Part shown: piece after piece, positions 511 through 29,932 of the stretch
Numbering within the stretch: the stretch's first letter is position 1
How the letters are laid out: each line of letters starts with the position of its first letter
From: Chrysomallon squamiferum
Lineage: Eukaryota; Animalia; Mollusca
Direction: 5' to 3'
Length of the DNA stretch: 64,000 nucleotides
Assembly (NCBI GenBank): GCA_012295275.1
Contig: CM022670.1
Span: 36,518,001-36,582,000 of the forward strand
Notes under the pieces: model-generated
Seen by the model: the letters and a program-made list of their open reading frames with translations, nothing else
What the model was told of the DNA's origin: nothing
Databases searched by the model: none
Program-made: the position numbers and the translations under genes

Positions 511-966
511 TTATATTCTGCTGAGTGTTTTGTCATTTTTCATCAGCAACTCCTTGTTGTAGTTCACCGCTGTGAGTATTGTGGACAATAGTCTTGTAAT
601 GTCCACATCGTTCTCATTCAGACTGAGAGATTCATTAACAGTTGTTAATTCGGGTTGCAATGAACGCTGCACAACTGTTTTATATTCCATATTTAGTGTG
701 CCCGTAAGAGTCGTCAATTCTTTTAGTTCATCTGAATAATGGAAACAAATACAACAACAATAATAATAATAATCATAATAATAATAATAATAATAATAAT
801 AATTATAATAATAATAAAAATTACAATAGAACAATAAAAAATTAAGTAAATAATTAAATAAAAATATTAATAAATTGTGCAATAAATCGAAAGCGCAAAC
901 TGGACGTAAAAATAAAATAAATAAATAAGATCAACTGATCAATCGATGAAAAAATAAATCTATTCA

Positions 967-1025
<59 letters not shown>

Positions 1026-3452
1026 TAAAATATGGATATAAATAAATAAATAAATAAATAAATAATAATTTGAAAAATTAATACCAGCGTAGGGTACATT
1101 TATTCTTACCTAGAAGTATTTCAGCAAGATGATGTTGACCAGTTTTGATCAAAGCGTCCACCAAGCAGTCGAAAGCTTTCTCTCCAAACAGAGGAAGGAT
1201 GTCGACGAGACGTCGAAACGTTTCTGTTCTTGTCTCTGGACTGAGAATGTAATCAACATCACAAAGTGACAACACAGCATGGTCACGCAGGTGTGATACC
1301 ACGTAGCTTACAAATATGTCTGCTTCAAGTCTGCTGTACGCCTTTTCTATAGCAGTTGTGTGATGAGGAGGCATTAAACCATCTTTAAAAAAAGTAAAAT
1401 ATATATAAATAATAATAATAATAAATAGTTTAGAAAAGAATAATAATCCGTTTAAAAGAAAACGATAATAATTTGTGAACATTCTTTCCACATTCTGTAT
1501 TACAAACAGTAACAAAAACGCTAATAGTCACATTTATGTTTTATAACACGTGAAAACCAGTAATTAGACACCTTACCGGAGAATGGACAGATAGATAATC
1601 TTTGACAAGCTGAAATCAGATCAGCGACAGACTGTGACGTTTTGTTCCATTCGTACAGCACGTCCCAGAAAACTTTTCCACTTTCTTCATTAACTAATTT
1701 CTCCACTGCACTGCTGTTTAAGCCTAGAGCTAAACCAAACTTCATGACTTTATCTTTGTCGTCTGGAAAAACACGTGAATAATCAATTAAAACTAACAAA
1801 AAATTATAAATAGACAATGAACGGAAAAAAAAGATGAAAAGCACAACAAAAAAAAAACAACAACAACAACGGCGACAACAATTTGAAATTAAATACAAAG
1901 AAAACGCTGTAGGAAATTTAATAATAGTCAATAGTTCTTAAATTAATTTATGACTGATGATTCCACTGCGATGACTGTATTGCTATTTGTAAAAAGAAGA
2001 AGAAAAAATAAAAAATAAATAATAATAATAATAATAATAAAAAGTAATATAAAATAAAAATAAAAATAAATAAACATATAAATAAAAATAAAAATAAATA
2101 AACATATAAATAAAAATAAAAATAAATAAACATATAAATAAAAATAAATCTTTAATTGTAAAAAATAAATTAAAAAAATAAAAATAAAAATAATAAAAAG
2201 GAAGGGTTTGGCTTCGTATTTGGTTGTAAACATACCTAACTTTTTTTCAATGCGAAATGCAAATCCTAAAACGTGTGCAGGCAGATTGTTGTGATTCACA
2301 TTTGATCGTTTGCTTTCTGCCAGAAGTTCTGTTAACTTGCTGCTGATCTCTTCTGTGGATTCCTGCACACTATCCACTGCTTGACGAATGTCGGTCTGAC
2401 CTTTATTAATTTCGTTCACCTGCAATGAACTAAGTGAAATGAATATTTTCCATTATATAAACGAAGAAAAACCTCGTTTAGAAAATAAATGACTTATTAG
2501 TAATCTTTCATTCCAGATTGTTTTCTTTATTTGTTTCTGTGGTAAAAATTATACAATACATTTTAGATTTGACGGATTCTAATGATTGTAATAGCATTAT
2601 TCTATTGTCAGACTTTGTTTCAAGCAATAACATGTCAAAAATCTTTCAAGCATAAAGTATTTTTAGACCATTTATTGATATTTATTTACAAAAAGGATCT
2701 CCTTAAGTTATTTCGATGCAGATACTTATAAGTGCGCGCAGACACACGAGCATGAAAATGAGAGAGAGAAAAAAGTTTTACTACATGATAATAATTATTA
2801 TACCTACTTTCATTAAAAGATGACTGTGCTGTTTTATTTCTTTCTCAAGGGCCTCTTCTAACGCTTTGCATTGTTGCGTCAACATCTTTATTATGTAATC
2901 TGGTCTTTGTTTCAGACTGTCGTCCCGTTTACTGTCTGCATCAATTTTGTTTTCCAGTCTCTCTAATGTATCAGACAACTTCTTCTTGTCCTCGAATTTA
3001 TTTTTCAGAGTGGAATCCAACCTGTGCACGACCTCGTACATAATCTGATCTGTAGCATCCTTCTTTCTGAGTTTGTCTTCAGTTTCTTTCAGTCTGGCAG
3101 ACAGATCTGTTATTGTCGCTTGTTGTTCTTGCAAACGAAGATTGCAGTTCTCATGGACGTCTCGTTGTAGTTCTGTTGTGACTTGGCTTTGAGTGAAAGA
3201 ACGCCGTGTTTCCTGCGTCGGTCCGGAAACAATTGTTGGTAGGTTTGTTTGACTGGGACTGGCTGCATGTTTTAGGTATTCTAATTCCAATCTCAGTTTT
3301 CTGTTTTCACTCTGCAAAGTGGCAACTAGCTGGACTGCCTCGTGGTAATTTTCAAGTTTATTTTTTGTTTTGTCAGATGATTCACTAGTGCTTTGGTCGT
3401 CTTCACAATTGTCTTTTTTACTTTTCTTTTTGCGAAATGATTTTCGAAACAT
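511..3452 (-). CDS. Coiled-coil/Death-domain-like/CARD protein, copy 1 (intact, ~502 aa); exons 3452-2808, 2419-2236, 1762-1577, 1382-1110, 731-511
   Basis: All introns GT..AG with compatible phases (0,1,1,1); total 1509 nt = 503 codons including stop. Exon 4 is a CARD (MPPHHTTAIEKAYSRLEADI...LVDILPLFGEKAFDCLVDALIKTGQHHLAEILL); exons 2/3 are Death-domain-like (FGLALGLNSSAVEKL...FWDVLYEW...SVADLISACQRL); exon 1 is a heptad-rich coiled coil. Confidence 0.85.
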
Positions 3453-3656
3453 TATAACATGCCGTAGTAATGGTATTTATCAGTGAAGCAAACTGAAAAC
3501 TTGCTTATTTCAGTATATTTATCAAGCTTTTTCCTGTTATAAAAATAGCAAATCAAATGTTATTTAAATCAATAATGTCAATGATGATTTTCTATTATGA
3601 TAATAGTTATAAAAATTATGAGGACGACGATTATGAACATGATAATAATAACTGAA

Positions 3657-3942
3657 ACATAACACAAATTAAATCACCTGGGTAAATAAATATGACGTAC
3701 AAATAAATTGATAATTAAGATAAATAAAACAGTATTCTTCCCGGAGAAACCTGGATATTTATCTTTTCTGAAAACACCAATTCACTGATAACATGTTATC
3801 TGTCACTGTTTTAGTAACTCGTGTATTTAGTAATCTGTAACGTCATCTACAGCAGAGCCGGTTACTCACTTTGTTAGTTCATTATTTTTATTATTACCAG
3901 TTCTATTAAATACCAACAACAGAAGTAATTATTTATTTAGTA

Positions 3943-3980
<38 letters not shown>

Positions 3981-5571: not shown

Positions 5572-5574
5572 TAC

Positions 5575-7890: not shown

Positions 7891-8119
7891 TTTGTGTTTT
7901 AACACACACACACTTTATTTCAGCATAATATTTTAATTTTAATCTTTTTTAAATAAATAAATAAATTATAACACTAGATTTCTTAGCAAAATGGTTGTAA
8001 ATAATAAACTAAGTAAATAAGTAGGTAAATAAGTAAATAAGTCAGTAAATAAATAAATAAACAAATAAAGCAATTTGATTATGGCAGTACCGAAATTAAT
8101 ATAAAAATGACTAATTTAA

Positions 8120-8313
8120 AGTTATACTCATTTTATATCATTTCAGGGGCACCATGTAACACTAATATCTAATTGTCAAGAAATATGGTATTTCTTCACT
8201 GTTGCAACTAAAGAAATGAAGTATTAGGGAAGACACACTCCGCAAAGTAATCTGCATGGACCTTGCTCGTGTTGCTAGAGATGACACTGAATATGCGTTG
8301 CTCTGCAAAGTAA
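8120..8313 (+). repeat. Internally deleted duplicate of the MULE relic (joins 6660-6748 to 7420-7523)
   Basis: gttatactcattttatatcatttcagg...cactgttgcaact fused directly to aaaga(a/t)atgaag..ttagggaagacacactccgcaaagtaatctgc. Confidence 0.85.
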
Positions 8314-8334
8314 TCTAAGTAGATACGCGAAAAG

Positions 8335-8451
8335 GTGATATTTATGACGTGGCAAGGAGCATGTGCGCATACGCAAATGTCAAAAAGTTGGTAGGAAAAT
8401 AAATATTGTGCGGGTAATGTTTTAATATTTGAATATATATGCAATGATGAA

Positions 8452-8494
<43 letters not shown>

Positions 8495-8702
8495 TTTTTT
8501 ATTATTTTTATTTTTTTTTTTTTTTTTTTATTATTATTATTTTTTTTGTAGTTATGAATTATTTCATTTTAACACACACTTTATTTCAGCACAATATTTT
8601 AATTTTTTAATTTTTTTGCAAATAAATAAATTACTACACTAGATTTATTGGCAAAATGGTTGTAAATAATTAACTAAGTAAATAAGTAGGTAAATAAATC
8701 AG

Positions 8703-8733
<31 letters not shown>

Positions 8734-8830: not shown

Positions 8831-10194
8831 ATAAATAATTAATAAACAAAATAAATAAATAAATGAACAATGTTACTATTTATAAACGATGCAACTATTA
8901 AGATTTTAGCAATAAAGGTAACTAACTATATAACGCACCTAAGAAGACTGATTGTTTGACCCTTGGCAAAACGCTGAACACGAGTTACTACTTACAGTTG
9001 TTAAACATGACACACGTTCCGACTACGAGGAGTAACAACCCATGCAAAGATATCAAATTATTTTTAAAGAACCCCAACAAATAAAAATGGCCGTTATACG
9101 GTTTTTTCCACGTTAAAAATATATGTAAATCTAAGGTAAAATTGCTTTAAAATGTAAAGGCTGTTCTGTTCGTTGTGTAAGTAAAATATACAGTAAATAT
9201 ATTGATATATAAATAGATGATTATATAAGGTCACATGCCATTTTACATAGAAACTTTATATATTATATCGTAATGTATTTAGCCAGCAAAATTTTTTTTT
9301 TTTTTAAATCGAATTAAAATGCAGGTGTAAATAAATAATTTTTTGTGTGAGGCATATGAAGTGTTGTTGTGTTTTTGTTGTTTATTTTAAATATTTTGAT
9401 AATAATTCGATAAGCCTTACCTGTCGCAATCACTTCCTGATCGTTATCTCATGGATTTCCCATATCTTACAAAAATAAACCTTTGACCGTCACGTAAGAA
9501 ATTGATCTGATTGGCTCATAAAACAACAGGTGACATTCTCTTGTGAGTGCTTCTTTATGTTAACCTACTTTAGTTACGTGTCTGTCTTTTAAATCAAATT
9601 TTATTATTTAGTTTGCAAGTATCCCTTTACAATAACTACTTCTATCGCCAAGATTACTCATAATAAAAAAAAAAAAAAAGAAAAAGAAAAAAAGAAAAGA
9701 AAAAGAAAATGAAAACAGAAGAAAATGTTTAATGATATCATATTTCTTTATTAAACGTTATAAGATGTCGTAACTTTTTTATTAAGATTTTGTAATTTCT
9801 TCTGTTTAGACAATGTAGGAAACCCGCTTCAGATCAGCACGATTTGCTGTGATTGGTTTGCGAAGGTTTGATTTTTAATAAGGCGATAATGAAATACTGG
9901 TTAGAACTGGAATTATCGCAGTGGAAGCGATAAATATAATTGATCCTAATACATCCTCGACCAGCGTTTTACTATCTTATTAATTACTTTTAACGATAAT
10001 TCAGAATTATTCAATACACATTCATTTTTTTTTACCTTATTTATGTTCTTATGTTAATAGACATTATTTTAATTTTTGTGTTGTGTTGAAAGCAGTTAGA
10101 ATTTGGTAACGAATGTTTCCGGGGGGGGGGGCGCGAAATTCCACTAAAAATATATGTGAATGTGAAATACTAATAATTATATGTTTGTTTTCAG

Positions 10195-10594
10195 TTCACT
10201 GTTATAACGTACATTCTGAGTCTTGGCTGGATTGTGATAATGTGTATTTCTATCATCCCAGTTATTTGTATGCTTCTATTTTCTCCATCTGTGACACTGA
10301 AGTTTAGAACAGAAATGCAAACACCCTTACTTACTGCTTCAACCTGACTCAGTTTGGTAAGTCATTTTATTGTTGTCTCTGTCTGTCCTTTATTCGTATA
10401 ATTTACCGAATTTTGAAATACGGATTGAACTTTTTAAAAATAAATGATATAATTGTCTGGCAGCAAACTATACACGCATTAAGATTTCAAAGGAGTTGAC
10501 CGAGTACAGAGATGCTGTTGAAATGGAAGAACTAGAACTGAACAGCATTCACGACACAAGTCAGAAGGGACCTCCACCTTATTTAGGCCGTTGA
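10195..10594 (+). pseudogene. M6/proteolipid (GPM6/PLP family) pseudogene fragment A: TM3 exon 10195-10356 and terminal exon remnant ~10454-10594
   Basis: FTVITYILSLGWIVIMCISIIPV(fs)LYASIFSICDTEV*NRNANTLTYCFNLTQFG matches PLP/M6 TM3 and the CxDxRQFG motif; terminal CLAANYTRIKISKELTEYRDAVEMEELELNSIHDT resembles the M6 tail; frameshift and stop present. Confidence 0.8.
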
Positions 10595-12210
10595 TGGAAT
10601 GTTCAAGAAAAATATAACATTGATGTGAAAATGTTTTGAAAACACTTTCTTTTGAGATGAAAAATTTCGTAATTCCCTTCTACTTACAGAACAAGTAGCC
10701 ATCAATTAGACAATTAACTCAAAGTATCCTGTAACAAGATGAGTATGAACATCTACTCACACATCTATGGGTTCAGTAGTTGTAACCGACAAAACCTTTT
10801 ATTACAGTTTTAATAATTAATTATGAGAATCAAACTGTATTCATCTATCCCTGTAGATTTTAAATTTCTTAGATGAATTGTGAAAAGTAAATTTCATAAA
10901 TTTATTAGAGATCATTATTATCAAAATCAGGTGTCAAGTTGAGACACATGAATAAAAATGCGTCTTTGATTGACATATTTATACATTTCTTTTGATTTAT
11001 AACATTTTCTGCAGTGCTTATTTAGCGTCATTTTGTAATTTGACAGTGGCATATAGCAGAGCTGGTTTATTTTCTTTTTAAGTTGTTTTACAAAAATAGT
11101 AGGATAATGACTAGGAAAATGTTTGAATGGTTCCAGCCGACAGAACCACACAAAAGGTGACTCCTGATGCATATGTATTTTGGTGATTAGATGTCTCTAA
11201 ACCTTCATTCTTCATTCATTTTAGTACTCAAAAATACATTTGATATAATGCAATTAACTTACTTGCTTTATTATGTTCCTGTTTTGGTGGATGTGATTTT
11301 ATTGAACATACATTTTTCACATATCATAATGTACTGCTTCAGAATATTTGATCAGTTATTAAAATCAATTGATACTATTATTTTTCGATAGTTGCTCTAA
11401 CGTTTGGCCAAGAATTCTTTTATAATAAAAGAAACATTTTTTATCCATTTTATTTATTTATTTATTTAAAATGTTTTTATATATACATTTCTATTCTTGT
11501 ATTTCATCATGTTAAACAAAATTAAAACTCATATTAGATGATAAAATATATGATTTTTGAAAGAAAATATTACATTTTCACAATAATTATAACACTTTCT
11601 ACAGAATATTGCAAAAGCCTTAAACTAATATACTTTTTATTTATTTATTTATTTATTTATTTATTTGCTTGACATCATTATTCAACAGTTACTTTTATTA
11701 CAGATTTTGAATGCCATTTATTTTTTATAAATATATATAAATTTTATTTTATGGTATATACACTGAAAAGATAAACCTAATCAAGTTTTTAAAATAAAAT
11801 ATTAGGGAATATTAATAATTCTTTCTCTCAATATATTCCAAAAGTTTTGTAAATTGCAAGTTGTTATAAATCTAGGTTTATATATTTGTCTATACTTAAT
11901 GGATAACATGTTTTAACATTAGAAGATAAAGTTTCCAAGTAAGAGATGATTTTAAAAAATTGATATTTAAATGATTTGAAAATATCTATCAGTTTATGCC
12001 ATGAATATTTACTATTTGTAGATTTCATTAGTCTTTGTATCTTTTATAATAATCAGATGTTGATATATTGTTGTATTAACATTTTTAAATGTATCTTTTA
12101 CATAATACATTGTTTTCAGAAATAAACATTTTTATATGGCATTTTATGTTTGTGATTTTTTTTATCCTTTCAGATGAAATACATTGCATTCTGATTAACT
12201 AAAAAAATTA

Positions 12211-12308
12211 CTAAGTTCTTTGTATTTCACTTTCCAGTTGTTTCTCATATTCTTCCCTATTTAGTGTGTCCGAAACAGGAGTCAGTTTCTTTAATTCAAC
12301 TGAAGAAG

Positions 12309-12342
<34 letters not shown>

Positions 12343-12576
12343 TAAATGAAAGTAGAAAAAAACCCAGAATAAATATAAGATAAAACTAAATACATTAAAA
12401 AAAAAAAAAAAAAACAATTTAAATAAATTAATTAAATAAGTCGTATATAATTTCCTCTAATATTTTTGGCAGTCTATATTTTATTGTTATTTTGTCGCAA
12501 CGAAGTAAGTGTCATATTGAATGTTATGTATAAATCCATTTTTTGTGATCGTGGACCAGATCGTGACTCCCTGTCA

Positions 12577-12612
<36 letters not shown>

Positions 12613-12815
12613 GAGAATATGCATAATCTTACCTGACAGTATCTTAGCAAGATTTTGACCTGACTTGGCCAAAGCTTCCACAAAGCAGTCGAAAGCTTTC
12701 TCTCCAAACAAAGGAAGGTATATTACTACATGGACTACAAATATGTCCTTTGCAAGTCTGCTGTATGCCTTTTCAATAGCTGTGCTGTGATCAGGAGGCA
12801 TTAAACCATCTTTGA

Positions 12816-12857
<42 letters not shown>

Positions 12858-13388
12858 TATTATTATTATTATAAATAGTTTAGAAAATAATAATAATATG
12901 TTTTAAAAAAGAAAACGGCAAAAATTTGTGAACATTCTACGATTCTTGTTATATTCTGTTTTACAATTTCTTTGAAGAAAAACCCTGAAATAGTAAGATT
13001 TATATAAATAGCACATGGAAAACAGTAACTGTACACAAACGAGCAACAAATATATTTCACTGATAATAAGCCAATCTTACCGGAGAATGGACAGATAGAT
13101 AATTTTTGACAAGCTGAAATCAGAACAACGACAGACTGTGACGTTTTGTTCCATTCGTACAGCACCTCCCAGAAACCTTTTCCACTTGCTTCGTTAACTA
13201 ATTTCTCCACTGTACTGCTGTTTAAGCCATAGAGCTAAACCAAACTGCTTGATTTTATCTTTGTTGTCTGCAGAAGCACGCGAATAATTAAATAAAACAA
13301 ACAAACAAACAATAAAAAAAACCCCAAAAATTCAAAAACGACAACCCCCTGAAAAAAAGAACATTCAGCCACAATGTCGACAACCAAA

Positions 13389-13427
<39 letters not shown>

Positions 13428-15370: not shown

Positions 15371-15537
15371 TTCTTCGGGTAAAGACGGTAAAGCACTGTT
15401 TTTAGTAGAAATGGTATTTATCAGTCAAAGAAACTGAAAATTTGTTTATAATAAGTTTATCAAGCTGTTCCAACTGTAAAAGTAAGAAGTCAAATATTAT
15501 TCATATTAATAATGATGATGAAGATGAATTATAATGA

Positions 15538-15574
<37 letters not shown>

Positions 15575-17999
15575 AATGATAATAATAATGATAATAATAA
15601 CAACAATAACAACAACAATAATAGTAATAATTATAATAATAATAATTATAATAACTTAATTGAAACTTAACAAAAAGTAAATCGCCTGTGTAATTAAAAT
15701 AAATAAAACAATACTCACCTAGGAGAAATCTCAACTTTTTCTTTTCTGCAAATTGCATCTCACCTATAACATGTCGCAGTAACCAGAATCTATTAACACA
15801 TATATTTGATATAATCTGTTATGTCATCACCAAAAGTGCTGGGTAATGTTTTGTATATTTGAATATAAATTGGAATATTATTTTTGTTGTTAATAAATAA
15901 ATTACTAATATTATTCGTATACCAGTTTTGTTGTTGCAGCTATTAATATTGGTAACGATAACAAAAAAACAAAAAAACATAGAACTAATTAAGTAAACAA
16001 ACAAACAAATGTTATTATTACGAACTATTAAAATTAAAAGCGATAAAAATAACTGACTAAATAATTAACGTTGTACTATATTTGTTGGTAGCTACTAAAA
16101 TTAGTAAAATAAAATAACTAACTAACTAACTAAATAAATAAATAAATAAAGGAAAAATGGAGAAAAATTCATTTATGCGTTATATATATAAAACTAATGT
16201 AAAATTGTTATAAAATGTAAAGACTTTTTTTTCGTTATGAAAGTAAAATATATAGTAATAATTAGGTCAAACGATATTTTACATAGAAAGCTGATGAATT
16301 ATATCTTTATGTATTTAGCGAGTTTAAAAGCTGAAATTAAAATATACGTTATATATAACTACTTCTGTTGCTAAGATTACCAATAATATTAATTAAGAAC
16401 AAAAATAATAATAATAAAATAATTTATAATGATACTGTATTTCTCTATTAATAATTATTAGATATGACTTCTATAAATATGTTGTAATTTCCTCTGTAGA
16501 CAATAACAGATAGAGGAAACCCGCTTCAGACCAGCATGAGTTACTGCGCCTGATTACAACAAAGGTTATTTTACGTACCTTTGGTTTTTAATAAGGCGAT
16601 GTTGAATTTCTAATCTGAACTGGAATTATCAGTGCTCCTTATTAATTCTGTTATTTTTGGGGAATTTCTGATAATTATTTAAATCATTATTTAAGAATTC
16701 CTAATTGGTAATGATAATTTATAATTATCCTATATACATTCAATTTTATTACTTTATTTTATTGTTACATTAAAAGCCGTTATTTGATTTTTTAAATAAT
16801 ACCTACACGTAGGTTGTTGAAACAAACTGCATGATTAGGCGGCATAAAATGAATAATAAAACTAAACCAGCAGTTTGTATAAAACTACTAAGTATTTACA
16901 AATGAACACATTCATTCTTATTCATTCTTTTCCTATTTTACAGCAACTACTACATGATAGCAGCAGACTGAAAAACACTTTAAAAATGTATTATTAATTT
17001 AATAAATATATCTGTTTATATTTTGCCATTGATTTATTAAAGCAAAACATTAATTGCATTTATGTTTATTTCAAATATTTATTTATTTATTTATTTATTT
17101 ATTTATTTGTTGCTTTTAATGGGGGAAAAAAAAAAGAAGAAAAGGTGCCCTAAAAATATTGAAATTGCCCCTAAGATGTTTTGTCTACCATGACTTGTCA
17201 ACGAAAACACTACATACTATTATTATAGTTTAATTTTTCAATTATTCATCATATTAGTAAGATTCAACAGTTATATAATACAGATTATTCGTAATACCTA
17301 ATAATCCCATTTAAAATCGAGGAAAAAAATACATCTAGTTGGGTGGCGAGTGGTATATGGTGGCAGGGGAGGTAATGGCGAAAGGCAATTAACCCTAGTT
17401 GTCGTATAATCGTAACGAGAATCTCATCTCTTTCCTTCCCCAAAACTCTTTTTCTGCGACAAATGTAGGCAGACCAAAGAGGAGACCCATCTCGTTTTCT
17501 AACGACCGAGCTGCCTCAACAGCGTGGCCCAAGACAAAAGGGTAATGGCCGATTGCACAATTATTCACGAAGGGAACGACACGACTGATCGGCCAACCCC
17601 TTCTAAAGTTCTATCAGCTTCGCACTGGGTGTCTGGCAAGGCAGATCAAGCGGAAAAAGGTGAGTTGAATATTACCAATGTTGAAATAGGTAGATATCGT
17701 GCTTTCATTACGTTTGTGGAAATAGGGGTCAATACACCACAAAAATTGCGGCAAAAATTATGGGATGGTAGTATGTTGACTTGTCTGTATTGTGCAAGTC
17801 CGGCGAAAAGAAATGGAAGCTAGCCAGGGTGGCGTAGGCGACCTGGTTTTGGAGGGTGGAGGGAATTGGTGGTCAAAAATAGGGAAAAGGGCGGTTCCTT
17901 TACATCTATTCACGCATCGTCGTCGGCGTTCATGATTTTCGTGAAAATAGGTAAAGACATTCTGTTAGGGAGGGGGTGCCAGGCACATTAACAGGTCGT

Positions 18000-18760
18000 C
18001 CATTTGAAGTTCCTGTGAATTTCCCCTCTGAAATTGTTAGCAAAAAATGATGGAGATTTCAAGAGATATTCACCATCTTTCCTATCCAGACCTAGATTTG
18101 GTAAATAATCATATTGATCCAAGTGTTTGTTCTGTACATTATGTCAGTATGGATGTTGCAGTGCCAAAAATTTAGATGGTAGGTCAGGGAGCCCTGTTAG
18201 GAAAATCTGATAGAAACTCAGCATTCAGGCTACTACCAGTATTTCCAGGGGATTTCAATTTATTAGGGTTTAAAATGGATGATCTGTGCAACTACAAGTG
18301 TTCACCCATGGGTGCATCAGTCAGTTGTGCTTTATTTGAAAAGTTTTCCACTTTTATTCAGTGAGAAGCTGAGAGGCTATGTTTGCATGACTGGATGGTT
18401 GTGTTGCACTACCTGGACAGTTTTCTTTTTTGGGGAGTGGGGCAGGCTCAAATGAATGTCACAAGGTAATGGGAAGTTTTCAGACAGTGTTGCCATTTGG
18501 GAATTCCCACTGCAGAAGAGAGAACTGTGGGATTCAGCACAGTTCTAATTTTTCGCGGTATTGAAATAGATTCAAATTATATGGTATTGCACCTGCCTCT
18601 GAACAAATTGTTTGAATTAAGGAAGCTCATAGAGATTAATCTTATGAAAAAAAAGGCTACTTTAAAAACATTGCAGTCACTAACTGGGTCCCTAAATTTT
18701 GCCTGTCAAGTAGTTCAACCAGGCTGTGCTTTTATTAGACAGAACAAAAGGAATTACTAA
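18000..18760 (+). mobile_element. DIRS/Ngaro-type retrotransposon reverse transcriptase relic
   Basis: HHLSYPDLDLVNNHIDPSVCSVHY...GQGALLGKSDRNSAFRLLPVFPGDFNLLGFK...PMGASVSCALFEKFSTF...HYLDSFLF (YLDD degenerate), then GIPTAEERTVG...FRGIEIDS...LQSLTGSLNFACQVVQPG; stops and frameshifts. The GC-richer 17320-18000 may belong to the same element. Confidence 0.85.
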
Positions 18761-19241
18761 GCCACATATTTATATTCGCACACACACACACACACACATA
18801 CACATATACACATACACATGAATAATATTTATTAACAATCTGCCAATATGTAATATATGCTTTTCTTAATTAAAGTTCGCAACAAATCTAATAACTTTTG
18901 TTATTACAGATGTTATCATTAATTTATATAATAATATTAATATGGTAAAAAAAGTGTATGTATCTTATAGTTTAATCTAAAAAATTACTCAAACATTATT
19001 TTTGGAGGTATAATTTCTGACATATGCTGAGTATTATGCTCTAGACTGGTTAAGATTACAGAAACACTGAAATATTTATTAATATTGTGTATGTTTGTTG
19101 TACTGGAAATGTTATGTTGTGCCTCATAAAAACAATAACCTATGCAGTAACCATTGCTCTAGTGCAAGTTAATTTACAAACAAAAGATTGCAGATAATCA
19201 CCAGTTTTTTAAATAAATCAATATTAATGGTATATTTTAAG

Positions 19242-22220
19242 GTGTGTATCGAAGGATTATTAATGTTTGTGAATGTATGCCTCTTTGCTTCTTTACTGGC
19301 AACAGTTATATGTATCACAGGAGTTGGTGTGTTTTGTGGAACATCATACAAAGCCCTCAGTCTAATCATTAAAGATGTTCTGAATGATCTGTTTCTGTTT
19401 AATGTTAGCTGGTTGGTATTGTACACAAACATTCATATTAAACTTAGTATGATTTTACAGCTCTACTTACTGAAACAGTAAATCTGTTTAGAATTGCCAA
19501 TAAACTTTTATAAATTCAGAAAGAATATGTTCAATATTTATAGGGTATCAAATCTTGTTGCATATATATATTTTTTTAAAGACTAGGAAAAAATATAATA
19601 AATAATAAAATTTAAGAAAAATACCAAAATTGTAAAACAAAATAATTGACTATAGGGAAATACCTTCTGGGTTATTTCTGTAACAACAGTAATTTTTAAT
19701 TTTTCTGTTTGTTTATGACAAATTTAGGCTGGAGGTTATCCAGGTGGTTTTTGTTGTCATTGCTGTAGCAGTGGCTGTGTATGCTGTTATCTTCTTGATA
19801 TTTGGATTTCTGGCAACTAGTGCAACATGACAGAATGTGTATTCTGGTGCTAAGTGCATTATGGGAGGAAAAGTGTCTGCAGCATTTGTTAGTATCGAAC
19901 ATATTTATTTAAATCTATCTAATGTGTTTTTATTTGTATGCAAGTCAAAAATTTTATGATTAAATTCATTATTTTGAATTTATGTTTACGTAGTATGTTT
20001 TGGTTATAATAACAAAATTGAATCATGATTGATAAAATCTATGAAATTATGTCAATTCTGTATTCAAAAAGGCAAAATGTAACACTGCCCCCAAAGAAAA
20101 ATTACTATTAACTTTTAATTACAAGTATCAGAATATGTTTAATGTATGTAGTGTTATTTTATGATAGAATAAGAATTATAAAATTTATTCTTTGATTGTT
20201 AAAAGTTTACATATGTTACTAATTCTGAACATTTTTATATTTCTTGTACTATGTTCCCTAAATAGTTAACTTTACTTTTCAATTTTTTAATTATGCAAAT
20301 TAAATTTTATTATATTTGGTTTGTGGAAGTTTGGTAAAGATTGTTTTGGGGGAGGAATTCCACTAAAAATAAATGTAAATGTGAAATACTAATAATTATC
20401 TCTGTTTATTTTTTCAGTTCACTGTTATCACGTACATTCACAATCTTGGCTGGATTCTGATAACAGAAACACAAAACACTTACTTACTGCTTCAACCTGA
20501 CTCAGTTTGGTAAGACATTTTACAGTTGTCTCTGTTTGTCTTGTATTCATATAATTTACAATTTATTTTTTGTGTCAAATATATTTTTGAAACACACTGA
20601 ATTGTTTTGTAAATAAATGATAAAATTGTTTTCTTTATATTTTTACATATAAAAACATGTATTTTGTTTCCTTCAAAATGCAGTGAAAGTAAAGTTCCAA
20701 AAATACTATAAAACCTACTTTAATATTACTTTAAAAAAACAAAAACAAAAAAACAATAAAACTAATCAGAACAAAATTATATTTATTCTCAAGTTTTACA
20801 AATTAGAGAAGATGAAGAAACATGCTACTTTATAACATACTGTTTCATGAAACCTATTTCTGATGAACATGAATTTGTACAGTTTATAAATTTATAAAGA
20901 TAATTTCAATTAAATTTACTAACAGTAGTCATTTTTAAGGCCACTTGCATACATTGTTTTTTTAATGATTTTTTCTTTTTCACATTTAGGTGTGTACTGG
21001 GGTTCTTTTTATCCAGTCAGTTTTTCAACACCTGGAAAAGTTAAAGTGAAGGTGAAGTTAAACAAATGTGTGATACAGTAAGTTAATTAACATGTGTAAA
21101 CATATTTACTTCACTAAATATTAATGTAAACAAACAACAGAGAGTGTTACGTTCCTCTGTGATTGCTGTAATTATTTGTAAAAATCATTTTCATTCTTAA
21201 TTATTTAAAATATATATAGATAATTTTAAAATGAATTAACCTGTATAAAATTATGTACTACTATGAAATTTATAAATATTGATCTGAATTGACTAATATT
21301 TCAGCATATATAACTAAACAGTATAGATTGTTACATATTTCTGTCATTGTTATTATTTTAAAATTATATAATATCAGTTTTAAGTTTAATAATTACATTC
21401 TGTTCATAATGAGAATATCCAAACCTTTCAAGGGAGCTAACTAAAAGTTTTTATAGGCAATGTTGTTATTTTATGAAATTAATTTCCTAGCAAACTTTTA
21501 TAAATTATTTTTATTTATTTTTATTTTTAGGTTTTTGAGGCAAACTTTTTTTGTGTAAATTCCATAGGATTTTATTCATTGTTTCGGAATGGTGAGAGTC
21601 TAAAAATATTTAATTTTACATTTTAAAAAATAAGTATTTTTTAAAAACAATAGTTTTGTTTCATGTGTGTTATGTAAGTATTAATTTTTTTAGATGGGTG
21701 TAAGAAAGTACACTGAAATAAAGTAAATTATATAATATTATACATGTAAGAGGTAAACTTTTCAAAATTCTCAAAAGGCTTCTTCTTGAAATAAAGTTAA
21801 TGTACAAATCTCTAGATGAAAATAACAAACAAATAAAATCTTCAAAAGTCATCTGTATATTACTTTGAAGATAAGCCATATATTTAGTGATGAATAAATT
21901 ATTCAGAAATGTTTCATCTTATATTGTCAGTTTAATTTATCTTATTAAATTAAGTAATTATAGTCTCACATGTGGCCTAGCATATTTTTTTTCATGGTCC
22001 TGTTCAGCTGATATCCATAACTGGTTTTTCATAGTTGCATTTCTGTATGTAAATGAATTTAAATATATAATTTTTTTTTTGTCTGGCAGCAAACTATACA
22101 CGCATTAAGATTTCAAAGGAGTTGACCGAGTACCGAGATGCTGTTGAAATGGAAGAACTAGAACTGAACGGCATTCACGACACAACTCAGAAGGGACCTC
22201 CACCTTATTTAGGCCGTTGA
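19242..22220 (+). pseudogene. M6/proteolipid (GPM6/PLP family) pseudogene B: exons ~19242-19411, 19728-19887, 20418-20509, degenerate ~20990 and ~21531-21591, terminal ~22080-22220
   Basis: FASLLATVICITGVGVFCGTSYKALS (PLP TM1, cf. YASLIATILLYAGVALFCG); WLEVIQVVFVVIAVAVAVYAVIFLIFGFLATSAT*QNVYSGAKCIMGGKVSAAF (TM2, in-frame TGA at 19828); 70-bp deletion in the TM3 exon relative to copy A; AATAAA at ~23972. Confidence 0.82.
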
Positions 22221-24455
22221 TGGAATGTTCAAGAAAAATATAACATTTACGTGAAAATGTTTTGAAAACAGTTTCTTTTGAGATGAAAAGTTTCTTAATT
22301 CCCTTCTACTTACAGAACAAGTAGCCATCAATTAGACAATTAACTCAAATTATCCCGTAACAAGATGAGTATGAACATCTACTCACACATCTATGGGTTC
22401 AGTAGTTGTAACTGACAAAACCTTTTGTCACAGTTTTAATAATTAATTACAAAAATCAAACTGTATTCATCACTCCATGTAGATGTTATATTTCTTAGAT
22501 GAATTGTGAAAAGTAAATTTTTATAAATTTATTAGTGATTACTTGTATCATTATTATTAAAAACAGGTGTTAAATGGAGACACATGAATAAAAATGTGTC
22601 TTTGATTGATGTATTTATACATTTCTTTTGATTTATATAATTTTCAGCAGTGCTTATTTAGTGTCATTTTGTAATTTGACAGTGGAAAATTTGTACATAA
22701 AAGAAAAAAGTGAAAGAAACAATGTGTCTAGTTAATAATATAACTGAATTATCAGGTCACTTGTTGTTATTATTTTTTAATTTGCCTCATTTATTTTTAA
22801 TAGATGATTCCAGTGTTAAACTTGAGGGGAAAAACAAAAATAACAGTTTATTATTTCTAACAATTTTATCAAATACATTCCAGACATTCCACTTTTTGCT
22901 CATATTTTTATTATTTTGTTATTTTATTTTTTTAATTAATTAATTTGTTTATGCTATTGCTATTTGTGAATACATATACACACATTTACAAAACATAAAT
23001 GGTTGTGACAGAACATTACACCAATAATGTATAATGATGAAAATGATTGTTAAACAATTTATTATATTCATCATAATTTACTACATTTTAATACTTTAAA
23101 CAACTTTGATACTTACTTCCTTTATTATGTTTGTTTTGGTGGATGTGATTTTATTGAACATACATTTTTCACATATCATAATGTACTGCTTCAGAATATT
23201 TGATGAGTTATTAGAATCAATTGATAGTATTATTTTTCCATAGTTGCTCTAACGTTTGGCCAAAAATTTTTTTAAAATAAAAGAAACATTTTTTATCCTT
23301 TTTATTTATTTATTTATTAATTTAAAATGTTTTTATATATACATTTGTATTCTTGTATTTCATCATGTTAAACAAAATTAAAACTCATATTAGATGATAA
23401 AATATATGATTTTTGAAAGAAAATATTACATTTTCACAATAATATAACACTTTCTACAGAATATTGCAAAAGCCTTAAACTAATATACTTTTTATTTTTA
23501 TATTTTTTTATTTATTTGCTTGACATCATTATTCAACAGTTACTTTTATTACAGATTTTGAATGCCATTTATTTTTTTTAAATATATTTTATTTAATTTT
23601 ATGGTATATACACTGAAAACATAAACCTAATCAAGTTTTAAAATTAAAATATTAGGGAATATTAATAATACTTTCTCTCAATATATTCCAAAAGTTTTGT
23701 TAAATTGCAAGTTGTTATAAATTTAGGTATAGATATTTGTTATACTTACTGGATAACATGTTTTAACATTAGAAGATAAAATTTCCAAGTAAGAGATGAT
23801 TTAAAAAAGTTGATATTTAAATGTTTGAAAATATCTTTATCAGTTTATGGCATGATTATTCACTATTTGTAGATGTCATTAGTGTTTGTATCTTTTATAA
23901 TATTCAGATGTTGATATATTGTTGTATTAACATTTTTAAATGTATCTTTTACATAATACATTGTTTTCAGAAATAAACATTTTTTATATGGCATTTCATG
24001 TTTGTGATTTTTTTTCTCATTTCAGAAAAAATACACTGCATTTTGAGTAACTAAAAAAAAAAATACACACAACGTGAAAATATATATATTATAAAATTCA
24101 TCTTTTAAAGAGATCATAAGTCATATTTTCAGTTTAAATTCAATCGCTTTATCATGTTTGTACATTGATTTTGAATCTTTATCACAAACTTTAATAAACC
24201 TATGACTAATGTTTAATAATGCTATTACCACTCTATATCTAGTTTCATTCACCTCATTAAGGAGCATTCTTTTAAACAAAATCTCTATGTACAAGATACA
24301 TCCTGGTAAGTAATAATAAAACTATAAAAATTCTGTATTAGTAAAACTCGATAAAAAAGTAAAAATTGTTTTGGTAATGTTTAATAGACTGGAAACTGCA
24401 ATAGATAATAGTTAATCATTGATCATTGGCCTGTAACCTTTAAATAAACTCGGTA

Positions 24456-24715
24456 TTAGTATATCAGATTTTGTAGAGGATAAATAGCTGCAATGTGGCA
24501 TAGTAATATAATAATAAAGAAAGTTAGGTTGTTGATAACAAAATCAGTCTGATCGCTTTCATTCAAACTGTGGAATTCATCATTAGTTTGCATTTCACTT
24601 TGCGATGGTTGCTCCAATTCTTCGCTGTTTAGTGTGTCTGAAACAGCAGTCAGTTTGTTTAATTCAACTGAAGAAAAAAAAAATAAAAAAAAGGAACAAC
24701 GTGTGTGTAGACACA

Positions 24716-24754
<39 letters not shown>

Positions 24755-25325
24755 TGAATTCAATAAGTGAAAGTTGAAAAAAATAAAATAAAAAACAAAA
24801 ATAAATATAAGATATAACTAAATATATTTAAAAAATAGAAATAAATTAAATTAATGAAATAAGTCGTATATGATAATTTCCTCTAAAAATTTTGGCTGTT
24901 TATATTTTATAGTTATTTTGTCGTAACGAGGTTTGTCATATTCAGTGTTATGTATAATTACATTTTTGTGATCGTGGACCAGATCGTGATTCCCTCTCAA
25001 TATAATAATAATAATAATAATAATAATAGAATATGCATAATCTTACCTTTCAGTATGTCAGCAAGATGATTTTGACCTGATTTGGCCAAAGCTTCCACAA
25101 AGCTGTCGAAAGCTTTCTCTCCAAACAGAGGAAGGATGTCGACGAGACGTTGTAACTTATCCTTTTTTGTCTCTGGACTGAGAATGTAATCAACATCAGA
25201 ACCTGATAACACAGCGTTGTCACGCAGGTATATTACTACATGGTCTACAAATATGTCTGCTGCGAGTCTGCTGTATGCCTTTTCAATAGCTGTGCTGTGA
25301 TCAGGAGGCATTAAACCATCTTTGA

Positions 25326-25378
<53 letters not shown>

Positions 25379-28300
25379 GTTTAGAAAATAATAATCTGTT
25401 TTAAAAAAGAAAACGGTAAGAATTTGTGAACATTCAACGATTCTTGCTATATTCTGTTTTACAATTTCTTTGAAAAAACCCTGAAATAGTCTCAATGGAA
25501 AAAACAACAACAAGAAAAAATGTTTTCTAATAGTCAGATTTATGTTAAATAACACATGAAAAATAGTAATTAGACAGAAACGAGCAACAAATATATTTCA
25601 CTGATAATAAGCCAATCTTACCGGAGAATGAACTGATAGATAATCTTTGACAAGCGTTAATCAGATCAGCGATAGACTGTGATGTTTTGTTCCATTCGTA
25701 CAGCACCTCCCAGAAACCTATTCCACTTGCTTCATTAACTATTTTCATCACTGTAGAGTTGTTTAAGCCAAGAGCTAAACCAAACTGCTTGACTTTATAT
25801 TTGTTATCTGAATAATTAATTAAAACAAACAAAAAATTATAAATAATAAAAAACGACAACCCCCTGAAAAAAAACATTCAGCAACAATGTCGACAACCAA
25901 ATAAATAAATAAATAAATAAATAAATAAATATAAATTAAATCAAATACTGAGAAACGCTGTAATAAAATATCAAAATGAAAAGGTAATAATAATCTGTAG
26001 TGTTATCATCATTACTGCATGGCTTATGATTCCATTATTGCTGATTATTATTAATTATTTGGTTGTGACACACACACACACACCCAAACACACTTTTTAT
26101 TGGTTTTTTTTTTAAGTTTAAATTTTTTAACCTCGAAGCTGATTCTAAACATACCAAACTCTTTTTCAATTCGAACTGCAAATCCTAAAATGTGTGCAGG
26201 CAGATGGCTGCTATTCACATTTGATCGTTTGCTTTCCTCTGCCAAAGTCAGCAGTTCTGTTAACTTGCTGCTGGTATTTTCTGTTGATTCCTGTAAACTA
26301 CGTATTGCTTCCTTATATTCTTCTTGACTTTTCAAAGCAGATGTATTAATTTTCTTTAGCTGAAATTAAATATGAAGAAATGTGATTAATATTTTCCATA
26401 ATATACACGTAGACGGAAACTTTTAATAGCTTTCTTCGTTAGAAAATAAATTATTTATTACTGATCTTTGATTCCAGATTTTTCTCTTTATTTACTGCTG
26501 CAGTAACATCATACAGTAAATTCTTCGTTTAACGTCAACATGTCAACTGACTTCATTTTTAGCAGACTATTTCCATTAGATCTAAAGTAAACTTTTTATT
26601 TCTGTCATCCATAATGTATTTCACGTACAGGCTTTCATCATGTTATCCTAACTGTATAACATTTTTATAAAACACTGAACCAGTAAACAAATGACATCTC
26701 TCTCTCTCTCTCTCCGTTTGTTACAATTTCTAATATAGAAGTTGTCAATTTATATTTGACCATCACTATCGACACAGACACAGAGAAACACACAAACACA
26801 TATAGATATTATTACATAAATATATTTTTACATTTGCAACTTTTACTTTTTATTATTATTATTATTATTATCATCATCATTATCATCATCATTGTTATTA
26901 TTATTACAGTGATACCGTGACTTACGGGTTTAATTCGTTCCTTGACCGTGCTCGTAATTCAGTTTGCTCGTCAAATCAATTTTCCAAAATGAAAATAATT
27001 GAAATACCATTAATCCGTTCCAGCTCCCCCAAAACAAACCCAATTTTTTAAAAGTATTTTTAAAAAAGAAAAATGTATGTATAAATAACAAATATTGTAT
27101 AAAAAAACAATATAAAAGAGAATGTAAAGAAATAAATTGTAAAGTGTTCAGGGTTAGGGTTTACCCATCTTTTCATGGACAGAGATCCGCAGCTTAGAAA
27201 TTATTTTAATGCCTTTGGCTGGCGTTATAGCCTTTATTGGCTCCTTCTGCTTCAGTGTGGTATATATCGTAAAAGTACTACGCTCGTACTGCCTAGGCAA
27301 GTCGACTACATGCACACCTCGCTCATGCTTTTCTATGATTTCATGCTTTTATTCTTCTTCTCAACACTGTCCTTTCTTCTTCTCAACACTTTCTTAGGAT
27401 CCATGGAAATTTAGGAAAATACTGCACAAAAATGCGAGCACAACACAACAGAGATGCTTCAGCTGTGAGATAAGCACGTAAAGCAAACGAGTGATACGCG
27501 GGATGCTGGGCTGATATTGTGTTGTTCGTTGCGCCAATTAACGGCAGCGTTTCTGAAGCTCGCTCGTAACTCGGATCTTGATTCGCAACTCAAAGCAAAA
27601 ATGGACCGCTGTATTATTATTAATTTATTTTTTTATCATTTATTATTATTATTATTATAATTGCATGTTCACATTAAAAAATCCGGCAGCCTCCGGATGT
27701 AAGAAGTGCTCATTTTCAACAATGCCGGATTTTTTATGGTTTTATATGCTGTGTATATTTAACAGAAAATTAGTACCTGTTTACTCCTTTAAAGAAAGAA
27801 AATTGAACTCTATATGAAAAGCAAATGAAATTTTAATGTTCACCAACAAAATACAATAGTTCTACAGAATTTTAATTCAACTAAATAAAATAGTTTCTCT
27901 GAATTTTAATCATTACTGTATCCTCGAAAAGAAGCTAAATAGCAGATGGGCTAAATAGCAGGATCAGCATCTTCATCACTGACATTGACAATATTCTCAG
28001 CAATAGGAACATGTTGATGGTGGTTGCACATCTGGTTGACTTGAAGTTGATGGCAGTGGTGTATCAAGTGTGGACACTGCTGCTGCTTCTTCCTGGTTCC
28101 TAGCTATTTTCTTGAATATATCGTGCAGTGTCTGTTGCCTCATATACTCGGGTATTTCTGTAATAAGTTTATCTTAGAACAAGTAAACATTCACAATTTC
28201 CTGTTCACTTACAAAACTTTATTGCTCTAGTCCAGCCAGCAGTTCAGTTGTCAACGTAATTAGCCTGTCAATAGAGATTCTTTCTCTCACATCTTCCTCA

Positions 28301-29739
28301 TTTTCATCACTGCTTTCATCTTCATCACGTACAGGCATTTCTCTCCGGACTTTTAACCATAACTACAATTTCAGAATCAGTGTAATGATGAACTGTAGGC
28401 ACATTGCCATCAACATCCATCCAATCTTTAAAAGTGTTTTTCAGTGTTGATGTTTTTCAGTGTTGATGTTTTCACAGACTTCCATGAATTGGCAACACAG
28501 TACACTGCATCCGTAATGTTGAATTCGTTTATGAATTCTGAACTGGGGTGCCTGAATTAAGTGAACTCGCTAGGCGCCTCATTAACAGGCATCGGTACTT
28601 ACACTTCATTGAACGTATAATACCATTGTCCTATGGTTGAAGTAGTGATGTGCATTAGGATGGGAGGTAGACAACAAAAACATTATCTGAAACCAATCCA
28701 ATGTAATATCAGTGGTTTGCACAGACACGTCGATATTAATTTTTTTTTTTTTAGGTTTTCCAGTTTCTCTGCGATCGACAACACACGATGTTTACATTTT
28801 ACGCCACCTCTTTTCTTTGCTGAATCCATAATGGTGTTGTAGAGCAGCAAACAAATGATAAAATAAGAAGGAATGAGCAGGAATAACTGTTAGCAGGTGC
28901 AAGCAAGACCCAACAGCTGATTCTGGAGTACAGAACCATCAAAACATAAACGGCGCCTCCAGAAAACAGTTTCGCGCCAACACGGTAAATTTAAAAATGG
29001 GCTCCGAAATCCATGCCGGAAATCTGAAGGAACCGGATTTTTGAATGTCAACCGGTATTATTATTATTATTATTATTATTATTTACTGTCCAATTTTAAT
29101 GAAATATAACAATACAACTGAAAAAAATATATGGATGCCATTATTTTGCTGAATTCGTGACATTATCATACATAGTGTTGATCGATTTGCACAAGACACG
29201 TGTAAGTGGGTGCACAGGCACCACAACGAAAACAAATTCAAAGTTACTACTAAATTTTTACTTACTTTCTTCAACAGGCGATTGTGAGATTTCACTTCTG
29301 CCACTAAGGACTCTTCCAGCGCTTTGCATTGTTGCTTCAACTTCTGTATTTCTTTCAATCTATCATCCTTCACCATGTATATATGAAATTTTGTGCCCAG
29401 TCTCTCTGTTATATCTAAAGACTTATTCGTGACCTCGGACATATCTTTCACGGTGGTGTACAAAAACTCATCCTTCTTTCGGAGTTCGTCTTCAGCTTTT
29501 TTCAATCTGGCAGAAAGATCTGATATTTCCTTTTTTTGTTCTTCCAGTTGAATATTACTGTTCTCATGGACATCTCGTTGTATTTCAGGTAAAGAATGCG
29601 AAGTTTCCGAATGTTTTAGCATTTCTTCAAACGTCGGCTGGACAGATCCGATAAATTCCGGCAAGATTGCTCTCATAACTTTTAGGATATTTTGTTTCGC
29701 CGTTTCGTCCATTTCTTCGAGTGAAGATGGTGAAGCCAT
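24456..29739 (-). CDS. Coiled-coil/Death-domain-like/CARD protein, copy 3 (intact, ~449 aa, hydrophobic C-terminal tail); exons 29739-29266, 26359-26155, 25807-25622, 25319-25047, 24667-24456
   Basis: GT..AG introns with phases 0,1,1,1; 474+205+186+273+212 = 1350 nt; CARD MPPDHSTAIEKAYSRLAADI...GEKAFDSFVEALAKSGQNHLADILK; ends DFVINNLTFFIIILLCHIAAIYPLQNLIY*. Confidence 0.85.
26907..27612. mobile_element. Non-autonomous pogo/Tigger-like DNA transposon in intron 1 of copy 3
   Basis: Begins TA|CAGTGATACCGTGACTTACGGGTTTAATTCGTTCC (Tigger-type end) and ends ...CTCGTAACTCGG...CCGCTG|TA inside a TAT microsatellite; absent from the copy-2 intron. Confidence 0.6.
27664..29055 (-). mobile_element. pogo/Tigger-like DNA transposon with TIRs and a transposase C-terminal remnant
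   Basis: Termini CATGTTCACATTAAAAAATCCGG / CCGGATTTTTTGAATGTCAACCGG are inverted; minus strand ~28430-28100 reads DWMDVDGNVPTVHHYTDSEIVVMV...DEDESSDENEEDVRERISID...MRQQTLHDIFKK, typical of a Tigger/Jerky tail; absent from copy 2. Confidence 0.7.
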
Positions 29740-29885
29740 TGTATTTAGTAGAAATGGTATTTATCAGTCAAAGAAACTGAAAACTTGTTTATTTCCGGAA
29801 GTTTATCAAGCTGTAAAACTATAAAAGTAAGAAGTCAAATATTATTCATATTAATAATGATGATGAAGATGATTTATAATGAAAG

Positions 29886-29932
<47 letters not shown>

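What the first reader, a model, noticed from the sequence alone, without database searches (positions are those of the whole stretch)
511..29739. Tandem family of coiled-coil - Death domain - CARD adaptors with an unfamiliar architecture
Seen: three paralogues share an identical 5-exon phase structure encoding an N-terminal coiled coil, a Death-domain-like module, then a CARD, with no protease, kinase, NACHT, TIR or helicase domain. Known: two-domain death-fold adaptors are CRADD/RAIDD (CARD-DD), FADD (DED-DD) and ASC (PYD-CARD); I do not recognise a characterised coiled-coil-DD-CARD protein. The CARD's last helices (LPLFGEKAFD..V.AL.K.GQ.HLA.IL) resemble caspase-2/9 prodomain CARDs. Inference: a lineage-specific immune or cell-death adaptor that oligomerises via the coiled coil and bridges DD receptors to CARD caspases, evolving by birth and death.
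Basis: partly seen in the sequence, partly recalled or inferred. Interest (0 to 1): 0.8.

Follow-up and report, generated by a model that had tools for sequence, protein, structure and literature searches.

The report
Mollusc fused Death-CARD adaptor family
This snail DNA holds one spliced and transcribed gene, one intact-looking copy and one broken copy of an unnamed mollusc and brachiopod protein in which a death domain is predicted to lock onto a caspase-recruitment domain as one rigid unit, likely relaying immune or cell-death signals.

Summary
Three minus-strand copies exist. Gene A is spliced as modelled: all 4 coding introns are joined in RNA contigs and no enzyme exon follows. Gene C has an intact frame. 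The CARD passes Pfam; the death domain (DD) shows only through a family profile (FADD DD, E 5e-10). The layout coiled coil-DD-CARD is not lineage-specific: 20 database proteins from other gastropods, bivalves, a chiton and a brachiopod carry the same DD-CARD tandem, all unnamed, three with an added TIR, kinase or ZU5 domain. New point: the DD has five helices, and in three predicted models CARD helix 4 sits where DD helix 6 belongs. Family CARDs carry hydrophobic residues there, where other CARDs are basic. Best reading (0.5): a coiled-coil-clustered rigid DD-CARD unit, like the RIG-I tandem CARD but mixed, that converts a DD assembly into a CARD assembly. Main rival: a capping decoy. No partner or function was tested. 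New variant of a known kind.

The parts
9421..9504 (-). Gene A non-coding 5' exon (3' end fixed at 9421; 5' end approximate)
   Evidence: 83-letter loose end of an RNA contig at 3537 maps once in the window at 9435-9454, followed by a GT donor
2808..3533 (-). Gene A exon 1 (start codon at 3452): basic N-terminal peptide and coiled coil
2236..2419 (-). Gene A exon 2: end of coiled coil and DD helix 1
   Evidence: joints at both ends in RNA contigs; alignment to P0001; model of P0003
1577..1762 (-). Gene A exon 3: DD helices 2-5 and remnant of helix 6
1110..1382 (-). Gene A exon 4: CARD
   Evidence: PF00619 E 1.5e-9; joints
511..731 (-). Gene A exon 5 coding part: tail and stop
14783..15370 (-). 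Copy B exon 1 (start codon of C is lost; next ATG used; internal repeat 14836-15138)
13655..13859 (-). Copy B exon 2
   Evidence: 94.6% identical to C exon 2
13081..13267 (-). Copy B exon 3, frameshifted by one extra base
12633..12809 (-). Copy B exon 4, CARD lacking 93 + 3 bases
12211..12299 (-). Copy B exon 5 remnant with early stop
29266..29739 (-). Gene C exon 1: coiled coil
26155..26359 (-). Gene C exon 2
25622..25807 (-). Gene C exon 3: DD helices 2-5
   Evidence: 74% identical to A exon 3
25047..25319 (-). Gene C exon 4: CARD
   Evidence: PF00619 E 2.8e-11
24456..24667 (-). Gene C exon 5 coding part, ending in a hydrophobic stretch (not checked with reads)
10433..30333 (.). Tandem duplication holding B (about 10.4-16.0 kb) and C (about 22.1-30.3 kb), non-coding flanks mostly 79-99% alike

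Best explanation
Gene A encodes a spliced, transcribed, enzyme-free protein of a mollusc and brachiopod family (coiled coil, death domain, CARD) whose two death folds are predicted to lock into one rigid unit that likely converts a death-domain assembly into a CARD assembly. Shown: gene structure, transcription of A, the CARD, DD homology at family level, the family's range, decay of copy B. Predicted: DD helix 6 is lost and the end of CARD helix 4 fills its place. Inferred: this uses up the DD's type IIb face (helix 6) and the CARD's helix 4 face (IIa, part of Ia), as the two CARDs of RIG-I are joined by a type II contact. The coiled coil would cluster several units into a helical seed; the free DD faces would dock on an upstream DD platform (TNF receptor, FADD, MyD88, MAVS or PIDD type) and the free CARD IIb face would recruit a CARD caspase or another CARD signalling protein. 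Basic-aromatic end peptides may hold it at a membrane (weak).
For: Splicing and ends. CARD; model matches caspase-9 CARD at Z 16.5, rmsd 1.1, 93 aligned. DD: family profile A4 hits FADD DD E 4.8e-10, RIPK1 DD 7.3e-8, PIDD DD 1e-3 with its first half and RAIDD CARD 2.5e-8 with its second; P0111 passes the Pfam Death cut-off, 27.2 against 22.6 bits. Rigid unit: AlphaFold2 model of the Gigantopelta paralogue P0003, 39-row alignment, mean pLDDT 86.6, five DD helices and a 4-residue turn; solved DDs of FADD, RIPK1 and ankyrin G align almost whole (86 of 87, 85 of 87, 91 of 98 residues; Z 8.1-10.8, rmsd 2.5-3.5) over model residues 45-49 to 194-205, which ends in CARD helix 4; the Atlas's own models of P0001 and P0003 give the same span (280-428; 46-192). 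Sequence: DD and CARD envelopes abut in 22 of 22 tandem rows; proline in the helix 6 stretch in 12 of 15 seeds; at four CARD columns (two at the end of helix 4) 17 of 22 family rows have three or more hydrophobic residues against 4 of 131 other CARD hits, and 15 of 22 have no basic residue against 5 of 131. Coiled coil upstream in 16 of 16 rows tested, above shuffles (own crude score). Context: the cassette is fused to TIR, a tyrosine-type kinase or ZU5 in three relatives; tandem DEDs and RIG-I CARDs are rigid units, and ASC recruits caspase-1 with its IIb side (PMC11874512, passages); molluscs have CARD caspases but one recognised CARD activator (PMC11463336, section 10).
Against: No partner, location or function was tested. 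I saw alignment ranges, not coordinates, so the helix swap is read from first and last aligned residues. The window's own spliced protein was never folded; a paralogue from a relative stood in, pTM 0.67, and the single-sequence model of the orthologue was poor (pLDDT 49). The 22 family rows are related, not independent; 5 scallop, mussel and pearl-oyster rows and one Lingula row keep a basic residue at the end of helix 4. The acidic helix 2/3 residues that activator CARDs use are less kept in the family than in other CARDs (columns 32 and 44), and one changed column lies on helix 1, so the caspase-binding faces may be damaged. Rapid gain and loss of copies also fits decoys. The AlphaFold2 model matched MDA5 over one CARD only (95 residues), so the geometry differs from RIG-I/MDA5.
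Confidence: 0.5

Rival explanations
1. Capping decoy: the same rigid unit docks on DD or CARD assemblies but, lacking helix 6 and the basic helix 1/4 patch, stops their growth, like cFLIP or CARD-only proteins; copies turn over to tune or guard the pathway.
For: Loss of basic residues at four columns and of acidic ones at two; repeated expansion and decay; rigid tandem DEDs of viral FLIPs are inhibitors (PMC11874512, passages).
Against: Kept from brachiopod to snail with a long coiled coil in 16 of 16 rows tested; fused to a TIR or kinase domain in relatives, which suits a transmitter.
Confidence: 0.25
2. The DD-CARD unit is a single binding module for a non-death-fold partner or a membrane scaffold (as with ankyrin, UNC5 or p75 death domains), not a link in apoptosis or immunity.
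For: One Lingula relative joins it to ZU5; basic-hydrophobic end motifs in 18 of 23 family rows against 33 of 79 other CARD proteins (scale recalled, 8 rows are Haliotis); non-canonical DD and CARD contacts exist (PMC11874512).
Against: Birth-and-death tandem clusters and TIR fusion are typical of immune genes (established knowledge); no expression data either way.
Confidence: 0.13
3. An ordinary two-domain adaptor, a CRADD in reverse order, with a flexible link; the helix swap is a modelling artefact.
For: Language-model features place P0003 nearest CRADD-like clusters (0.83-0.87, below the 0.9 bar); predictions can pack adjacent helical domains by default.
Against: No room for a linker, prolines in the helix 6 stretch, family-specific hydrophobic patch, same span from two predictors on two proteins.
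Confidence: 0.12

Closest known systems
CRADD/RAIDD (PIDDosome adaptor; present in molluscs per PMC11463336)
   Same: One DD and one CARD, no enzyme; RAIDD CARD is the best CARD hit of the family profile (E 2.5e-8)
   Different: CRADD is CARD then DD, about 200 residues, no coiled coil; the one CARD-DD protein among the hits (P0127) falls outside the family branch, with weak support
Oyster MAVS (CgMAVS, PMC5557890, passages)
   Same: Molluscan adaptor with CARD and DD; gene C and P0003 end in a hydrophobic stretch
   Different: CgMAVS is CARD, DD, membrane anchor; here DD precedes CARD, after a coiled coil; gene A has no anchor; PF00619 scores above the MAVS/RIG-I type CARD_2
RIG-I/MDA5 tandem CARD and caspase-8/FLIP tandem DED
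   Same: Two death folds fixed as one unit; RIG-I uses a type II contact (PMC11874512); Atlas model of P0003 meets an MDA5 cluster over 169 residues, TM 0.48
   Different: Those are same-family pairs; here DD with CARD, with a helix apparently shared; no helicase or protease
CARD9/CARMA scaffolds
   Same: CARD plus coiled coil as oligomerising scaffold
   Different: CARD is N-terminal there and there is no DD
FADD and ASC
   Same: Two-fold converters between death-fold families; FADD DD is the best DD hit
   Different: DED-DD and PYD-CARD, complete six-helix domains, no coiled coil

Membership tests
CARD (PF00619) | Profile score above the curated cut-off | tested here: met
   38.2 and 43.7 bits against 23.9 for A and C exon 4
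CARD (PF00619) | Six-helix CARD fold | tested here: met
   Model of paralogue P0003: Z 16.5, rmsd 1.1, 93 aligned to caspase-9 CARD
Death domain (PF00531) | Sequence homology to DDs | tested here: met
   Family level only: FADD DD E 4.8e-10; 6 of 10 members hit Death at E up to 1, best 4.1e-7. Window exon 3 alone: no hit; orthologue P0001 14.1 bits, under cut-off
Death domain (PF00531) | Six helices of its own | tested here: not met
   Five helices plus a 4-residue turn in the model; sixth position filled from the CARD by alignment range. Prediction only
CRADD/RAIDD | N-terminal CARD, C-terminal DD | tested here: not met
   Order is DD then CARD in 22 of 22 tandem rows
CRADD/RAIDD | Binds PIDD and caspase-2 | not testable with these tools
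   No binding data
Molluscan MAVS | N-terminal CARD followed by DD | tested here: not met
   Reverse order
Molluscan MAVS | C-terminal membrane anchor | tested here: inconclusive
   Hydrophobic tail in 2 of 23 rows (gene C, P0003), absent in A; C's tail not checked with reads
CARD9/CARMA | N-terminal CARD before the coiled coil | tested here: not met
   Coiled coil first, CARD near the C-terminus
Rigid tandem death folds (RIG-I tCARD, tDED) | Two folds of the same family | tested here: not met
   DD plus CARD
Rigid tandem death folds (RIG-I tCARD, tDED) | Fixed contact between the two folds | tested here: inconclusive
   Predicted by three models and a hydrophobic patch; no coordinates seen, no experiment

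The most novel reading that the evidence does not exclude
An undescribed lophotrochozoan signalling hub built on a helix-sharing DD-CARD unit, the first rigid tandem of two different death-fold families, which splices a DD helix directly onto a CARD helix and serves as the missing second activator of mollusc CARD caspases (caspase-2 or caspase-Y) in animals reported to lack Apaf-1 and ASC.
Probability: 0.25. Interest if true: 0.8.

Novelty: new variant of a known kind. Interest (0 to 1): 0.55.

Why it matters
Molluscs, annelids and brachiopods are reported to have extra CARD caspases but no Apaf-1 or ASC and only CRADD as CARD activator (PMC11463336, PMC11508797). This family is a concrete candidate for a second activator or regulator, hidden from annotation because its DD scores under the Pfam cut-off. 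Death folds are taken to pair within a family; a built-in DD-CARD junction that shares a helix would be a new way to chain two assemblies and can be tested with one small soluble construct.

Tried and rejected
Exon 3 alone found nothing in Pfam, solved structures or the word-based protein search (0 of 200 candidates). Single-sequence model of P0001 was too poor to use. Complex prediction of DD and CARD of P0003 as two chains gave no answer (score 0.01, alignment not used); it counts neither way. Positive selection on the DD exon: dN/dS 2.0 for A against C but Fisher p 0.42, rejected as unsupported. One-clade test did not finish; the CARD tree holds all 22 tandem rows in one 29-row branch at 86/88, below the starred level; the other 7 rows are six short records and the first CARD of P0022. 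No whole genome was held, so copy number is unknown. Earlier findings of this scan: nothing. Chordate CARD-SH2-SOCS cluster matching both domains in the Atlas (TM 0.51, 177 residues) could not be fetched; none of 23 hits scanned had SH2 and a paper search gave no fitting title. 'DD-CARD' in PMC7053062 means a CARD-type death fold, not this tandem. Extra enzymatic exons for A, identity with CRADD, MAVS or CARD9, and a snail-only origin were considered and rejected on the evidence above.
Full report
1. Setting. The window is AT-rich animal DNA (30% GC). No whole genome was held. The closest relative found is a Gigantopelta aegis protein, P0001 (XP_041358802), so the source is a gastropod near that genus; the species was not determined.

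2. Gene models. Three homologous loci lie on the minus strand. A: 3452-2808, 2419-2236, 1762-1577, 1382-1110, 731-511, 502 residues. C: 29739-29266, 26359-26155, 25807-25622, 25319-25047, 24667-24456, 449 residues. Both have GT-AG introns in phases 0,1,1,1. A translated search of the window with the A and C exons found these three copies and no more. B has the same exons but one extra base in exon 3, which brings a stop in that exon, a loss of 93 + 3 bases in the CARD exon, and an early stop in exon 5. One extra base could be an assembly error; the large deletion is unlikely to be. B and C are the two halves of one tandem duplication with flanks.

3. Transcription. Five runs hold the A region; I laid four of the five on 400-3900. 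All 4 coding introns are skipped with canonical ends in contigs of RNA runs X1 and X2, 2 of 4 in X3, 0 of 4 in X5, which covers introns and behaves as DNA. The three RNA runs are of one study. A loose end maps to a non-coding exon ending at 9421. An in-frame stop lies upstream of the start codon and RNA cover continues past the stop codon, so A has no hidden enzyme exon. One X2 contig over the CARD exon has 9 differences from A, with C-type letters at three listed sites, one inside B's deletion; C differs from A at 14 places there, so a C-like allele or a further copy is transcribed.

4. Domains. Exon 4 is a CARD. Exon 3 alone hits nothing relevant. P0001 has the same layout over its whole length, with 52% identity to A in the DD stretch and 73% in the CARD, and a sub-threshold Death hit. 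A profile of the DD-CARD stretch searched against 1.84 billion representatives gave 313 proteins at E up to 0.001, the best 150 listed. A local DD profile marked 27 of 155 stored proteins. After six near-duplicates were dropped, 22 rows have a DD directly before a CARD: A, C and 20 database proteins. These are Gigantopelta 3, Haliotis 6, Mytilus 2, Mizuhopecten 2, Pinctada 1, Ylistrum 1, Liolophura 2, Lingula 2, unnamed 1. None has a functional name beyond automatic labels. A ten-member profile hits FADD, RIPK1 and PIDD DDs with its first half and RAIDD, BCL10, CED-3 and caspase-9 CARDs with its second. Three relatives add a domain: TIR (P0063), tyrosine-type kinase (P0006), ZU5 (P0110). Heptad-rich sequence precedes the DD in 16 of 16 rows tested; 14 beat all 30 shuffles and 2 beat 29 (own score). 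An amphioxus protein (P0093) also has DD then CARD but with a complete DD and a longer link; it was not counted.

5. The junction. The model of paralogue P0003 (39 rows, pLDDT 86.6, pTM 0.67) has DD helices at 47-57, 63-72, 77-86, 91-104, 112-121, a 4-residue turn, then a CARD whose helix 4 is 180-194. The CARD matches caspase-9, Apaf-1 and CED-4 CARDs at Z 14.6-16.8. Solved DDs align nearly end to end from model residue 45-49 to 194-205 (FADD, RIPK1, ankyrin G), which is possible only if their sixth helix overlays CARD helix 4. The Atlas's separate models of P0001 and P0003 show the same span. Sequence agrees: no room for a linker, prolines where FADD has helix 6, and hydrophobic residues at four CARD columns that are mostly basic in other CARDs, two of them the last residues of helix 4 (17 of 22 against 4 of 131 with three or more hydrophobic; six short records inside the family branch and one further CARD of P0022 were set aside). 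Limits: ranges, not coordinates; related rows; 6 of 22 rows keep a basic residue at the last column.

6. How it likely works. PMC11874512 (abstract, passages, section 10 read) defines type IIa as helix 4 and the 4-5 loop, IIb as the 5-6 loop and helix 6, Ia as helices 1 and 4; it states that RIG-I's two CARDs are fixed by a type II contact and that ASC recruits caspase-1 with its IIb side. The predicted junction puts the CARD's IIa region on the DD's IIb position. That leaves the DD's other faces and the CARD's IIb face free, the polarity of a converter from a DD helix to a CARD helix (inference). The coiled coil would supply clustering (inference from CARD9-type scaffolds). Basic-aromatic end peptides (N-terminal in A and P0001, C-terminal in Haliotis and Lingula) and hydrophobic tails (C, P0003) hint at membrane tethering (18 of 23 against 33 of 79; recalled scale, dependent rows). 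Against: acidic helix 2/3 residues are less kept, and a unit missing two faces could as well cap an assembly. I give converter 0.5, decoy 0.25, non-immune scaffold 0.13, flexible adaptor 0.12.

7. What is known. CRADD and oyster MAVS have the two domains in the other order (PMC11463336, abstract, passages and section 10; PMC5557890, passages). PMC11463336 reports no Apaf-1, PIDD, ASC or TRADD in molluscs and calls CRADD the only CARD activator; PMC8917759 (passages) lists PIDD1 among oyster annotations, so the upstream partner set is disputed. PMC11508797 (passages) finds no ASC outside craniates. PMC11103948 (passages) finds no MAVS in abalone, where this family is expanded. Passages of PMC7053062, PMC2575513, PMC4346834, PMC8998645 and PMC9334734 did not describe this layout. 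Ten searches of the open library gave no description of a coiled coil-DD-CARD family or a helix-sharing DD-CARD; other listed papers were seen as titles and abstract starts only, subscription papers are not covered and no supplement was read.

8. Verdict. The family is old, unnamed and prone to tandem gain and loss. New death-fold combinations are common in marine invertebrates, which lowers surprise; the predicted rigid mixed tandem and the gap in mollusc caspase activation raise it. New variant of a known kind, interest 0.55.

Noticed in passing
window 62292-63104 (+): Uninterrupted 270-codon frame matching Pfam HtrL_YibB, described as a bacterial protein of unknown function (E 1.5e-46), in animal DNA.
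   Followed up: no
window 41764-52020 (+): Multi-exon gene that looks like the cleavage and polyadenylation factor PCF11 (name recalled from motifs; Pfam gave only a weak zinc finger for 1 of 4 pieces).
   Followed up: partly
window 30560-33200 and 35773-38480: Long inverted duplication, 85-97% alike by block, with a third partial copy between, next to a 200-base N gap; real palindrome or assembly artefact.
   Followed up: no
window 9421-9480 and 3450-3533 (-): The 5' leader of gene A holds three very short upstream ATG frames, one ending right at the start codon; possible translational control.
   Followed up: no
window 1577-1762, 13081-13267, 25622-25807: In exon 3, B is closer to A (93.5%) than to its duplicate C (88.7%), the reverse of the other four exons: gene conversion or fast change of C's DD exon.
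   Followed up: partly
window 1581-1742: One RNA contig of run X2 has 10 differences and a 2-base loss in exon 3, matching neither B nor C: a further broken allele or copy is transcribed.
   Followed up: partly
window 26900-29050 (intron 1 of C), 17300-18800: Decayed transposon-like pieces: Tigger/pogo-like in C's intron 1 and a DIRS-like fragment between B and C (labels recalled by eye; the two fragments at 17.5 and 18.5 kb gave no Pfam hit).
   Followed up: no
Atlas rows for P0001 and P0003: A chordate cluster of 53 CARD-SH2-SOCS-box proteins overlays both domains of P0003 (TM 0.51, 177 residues); it may hold a similar tandem.
   Followed up: partly
P0022, P0016, P0110: Variants of the cassette: a doubled DD-CARD in Pinctada, DD-CARD-CARD in Ylistrum, and DD-CARD-ZU5 with a further C-terminal death fold in Lingula.
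   Followed up: no
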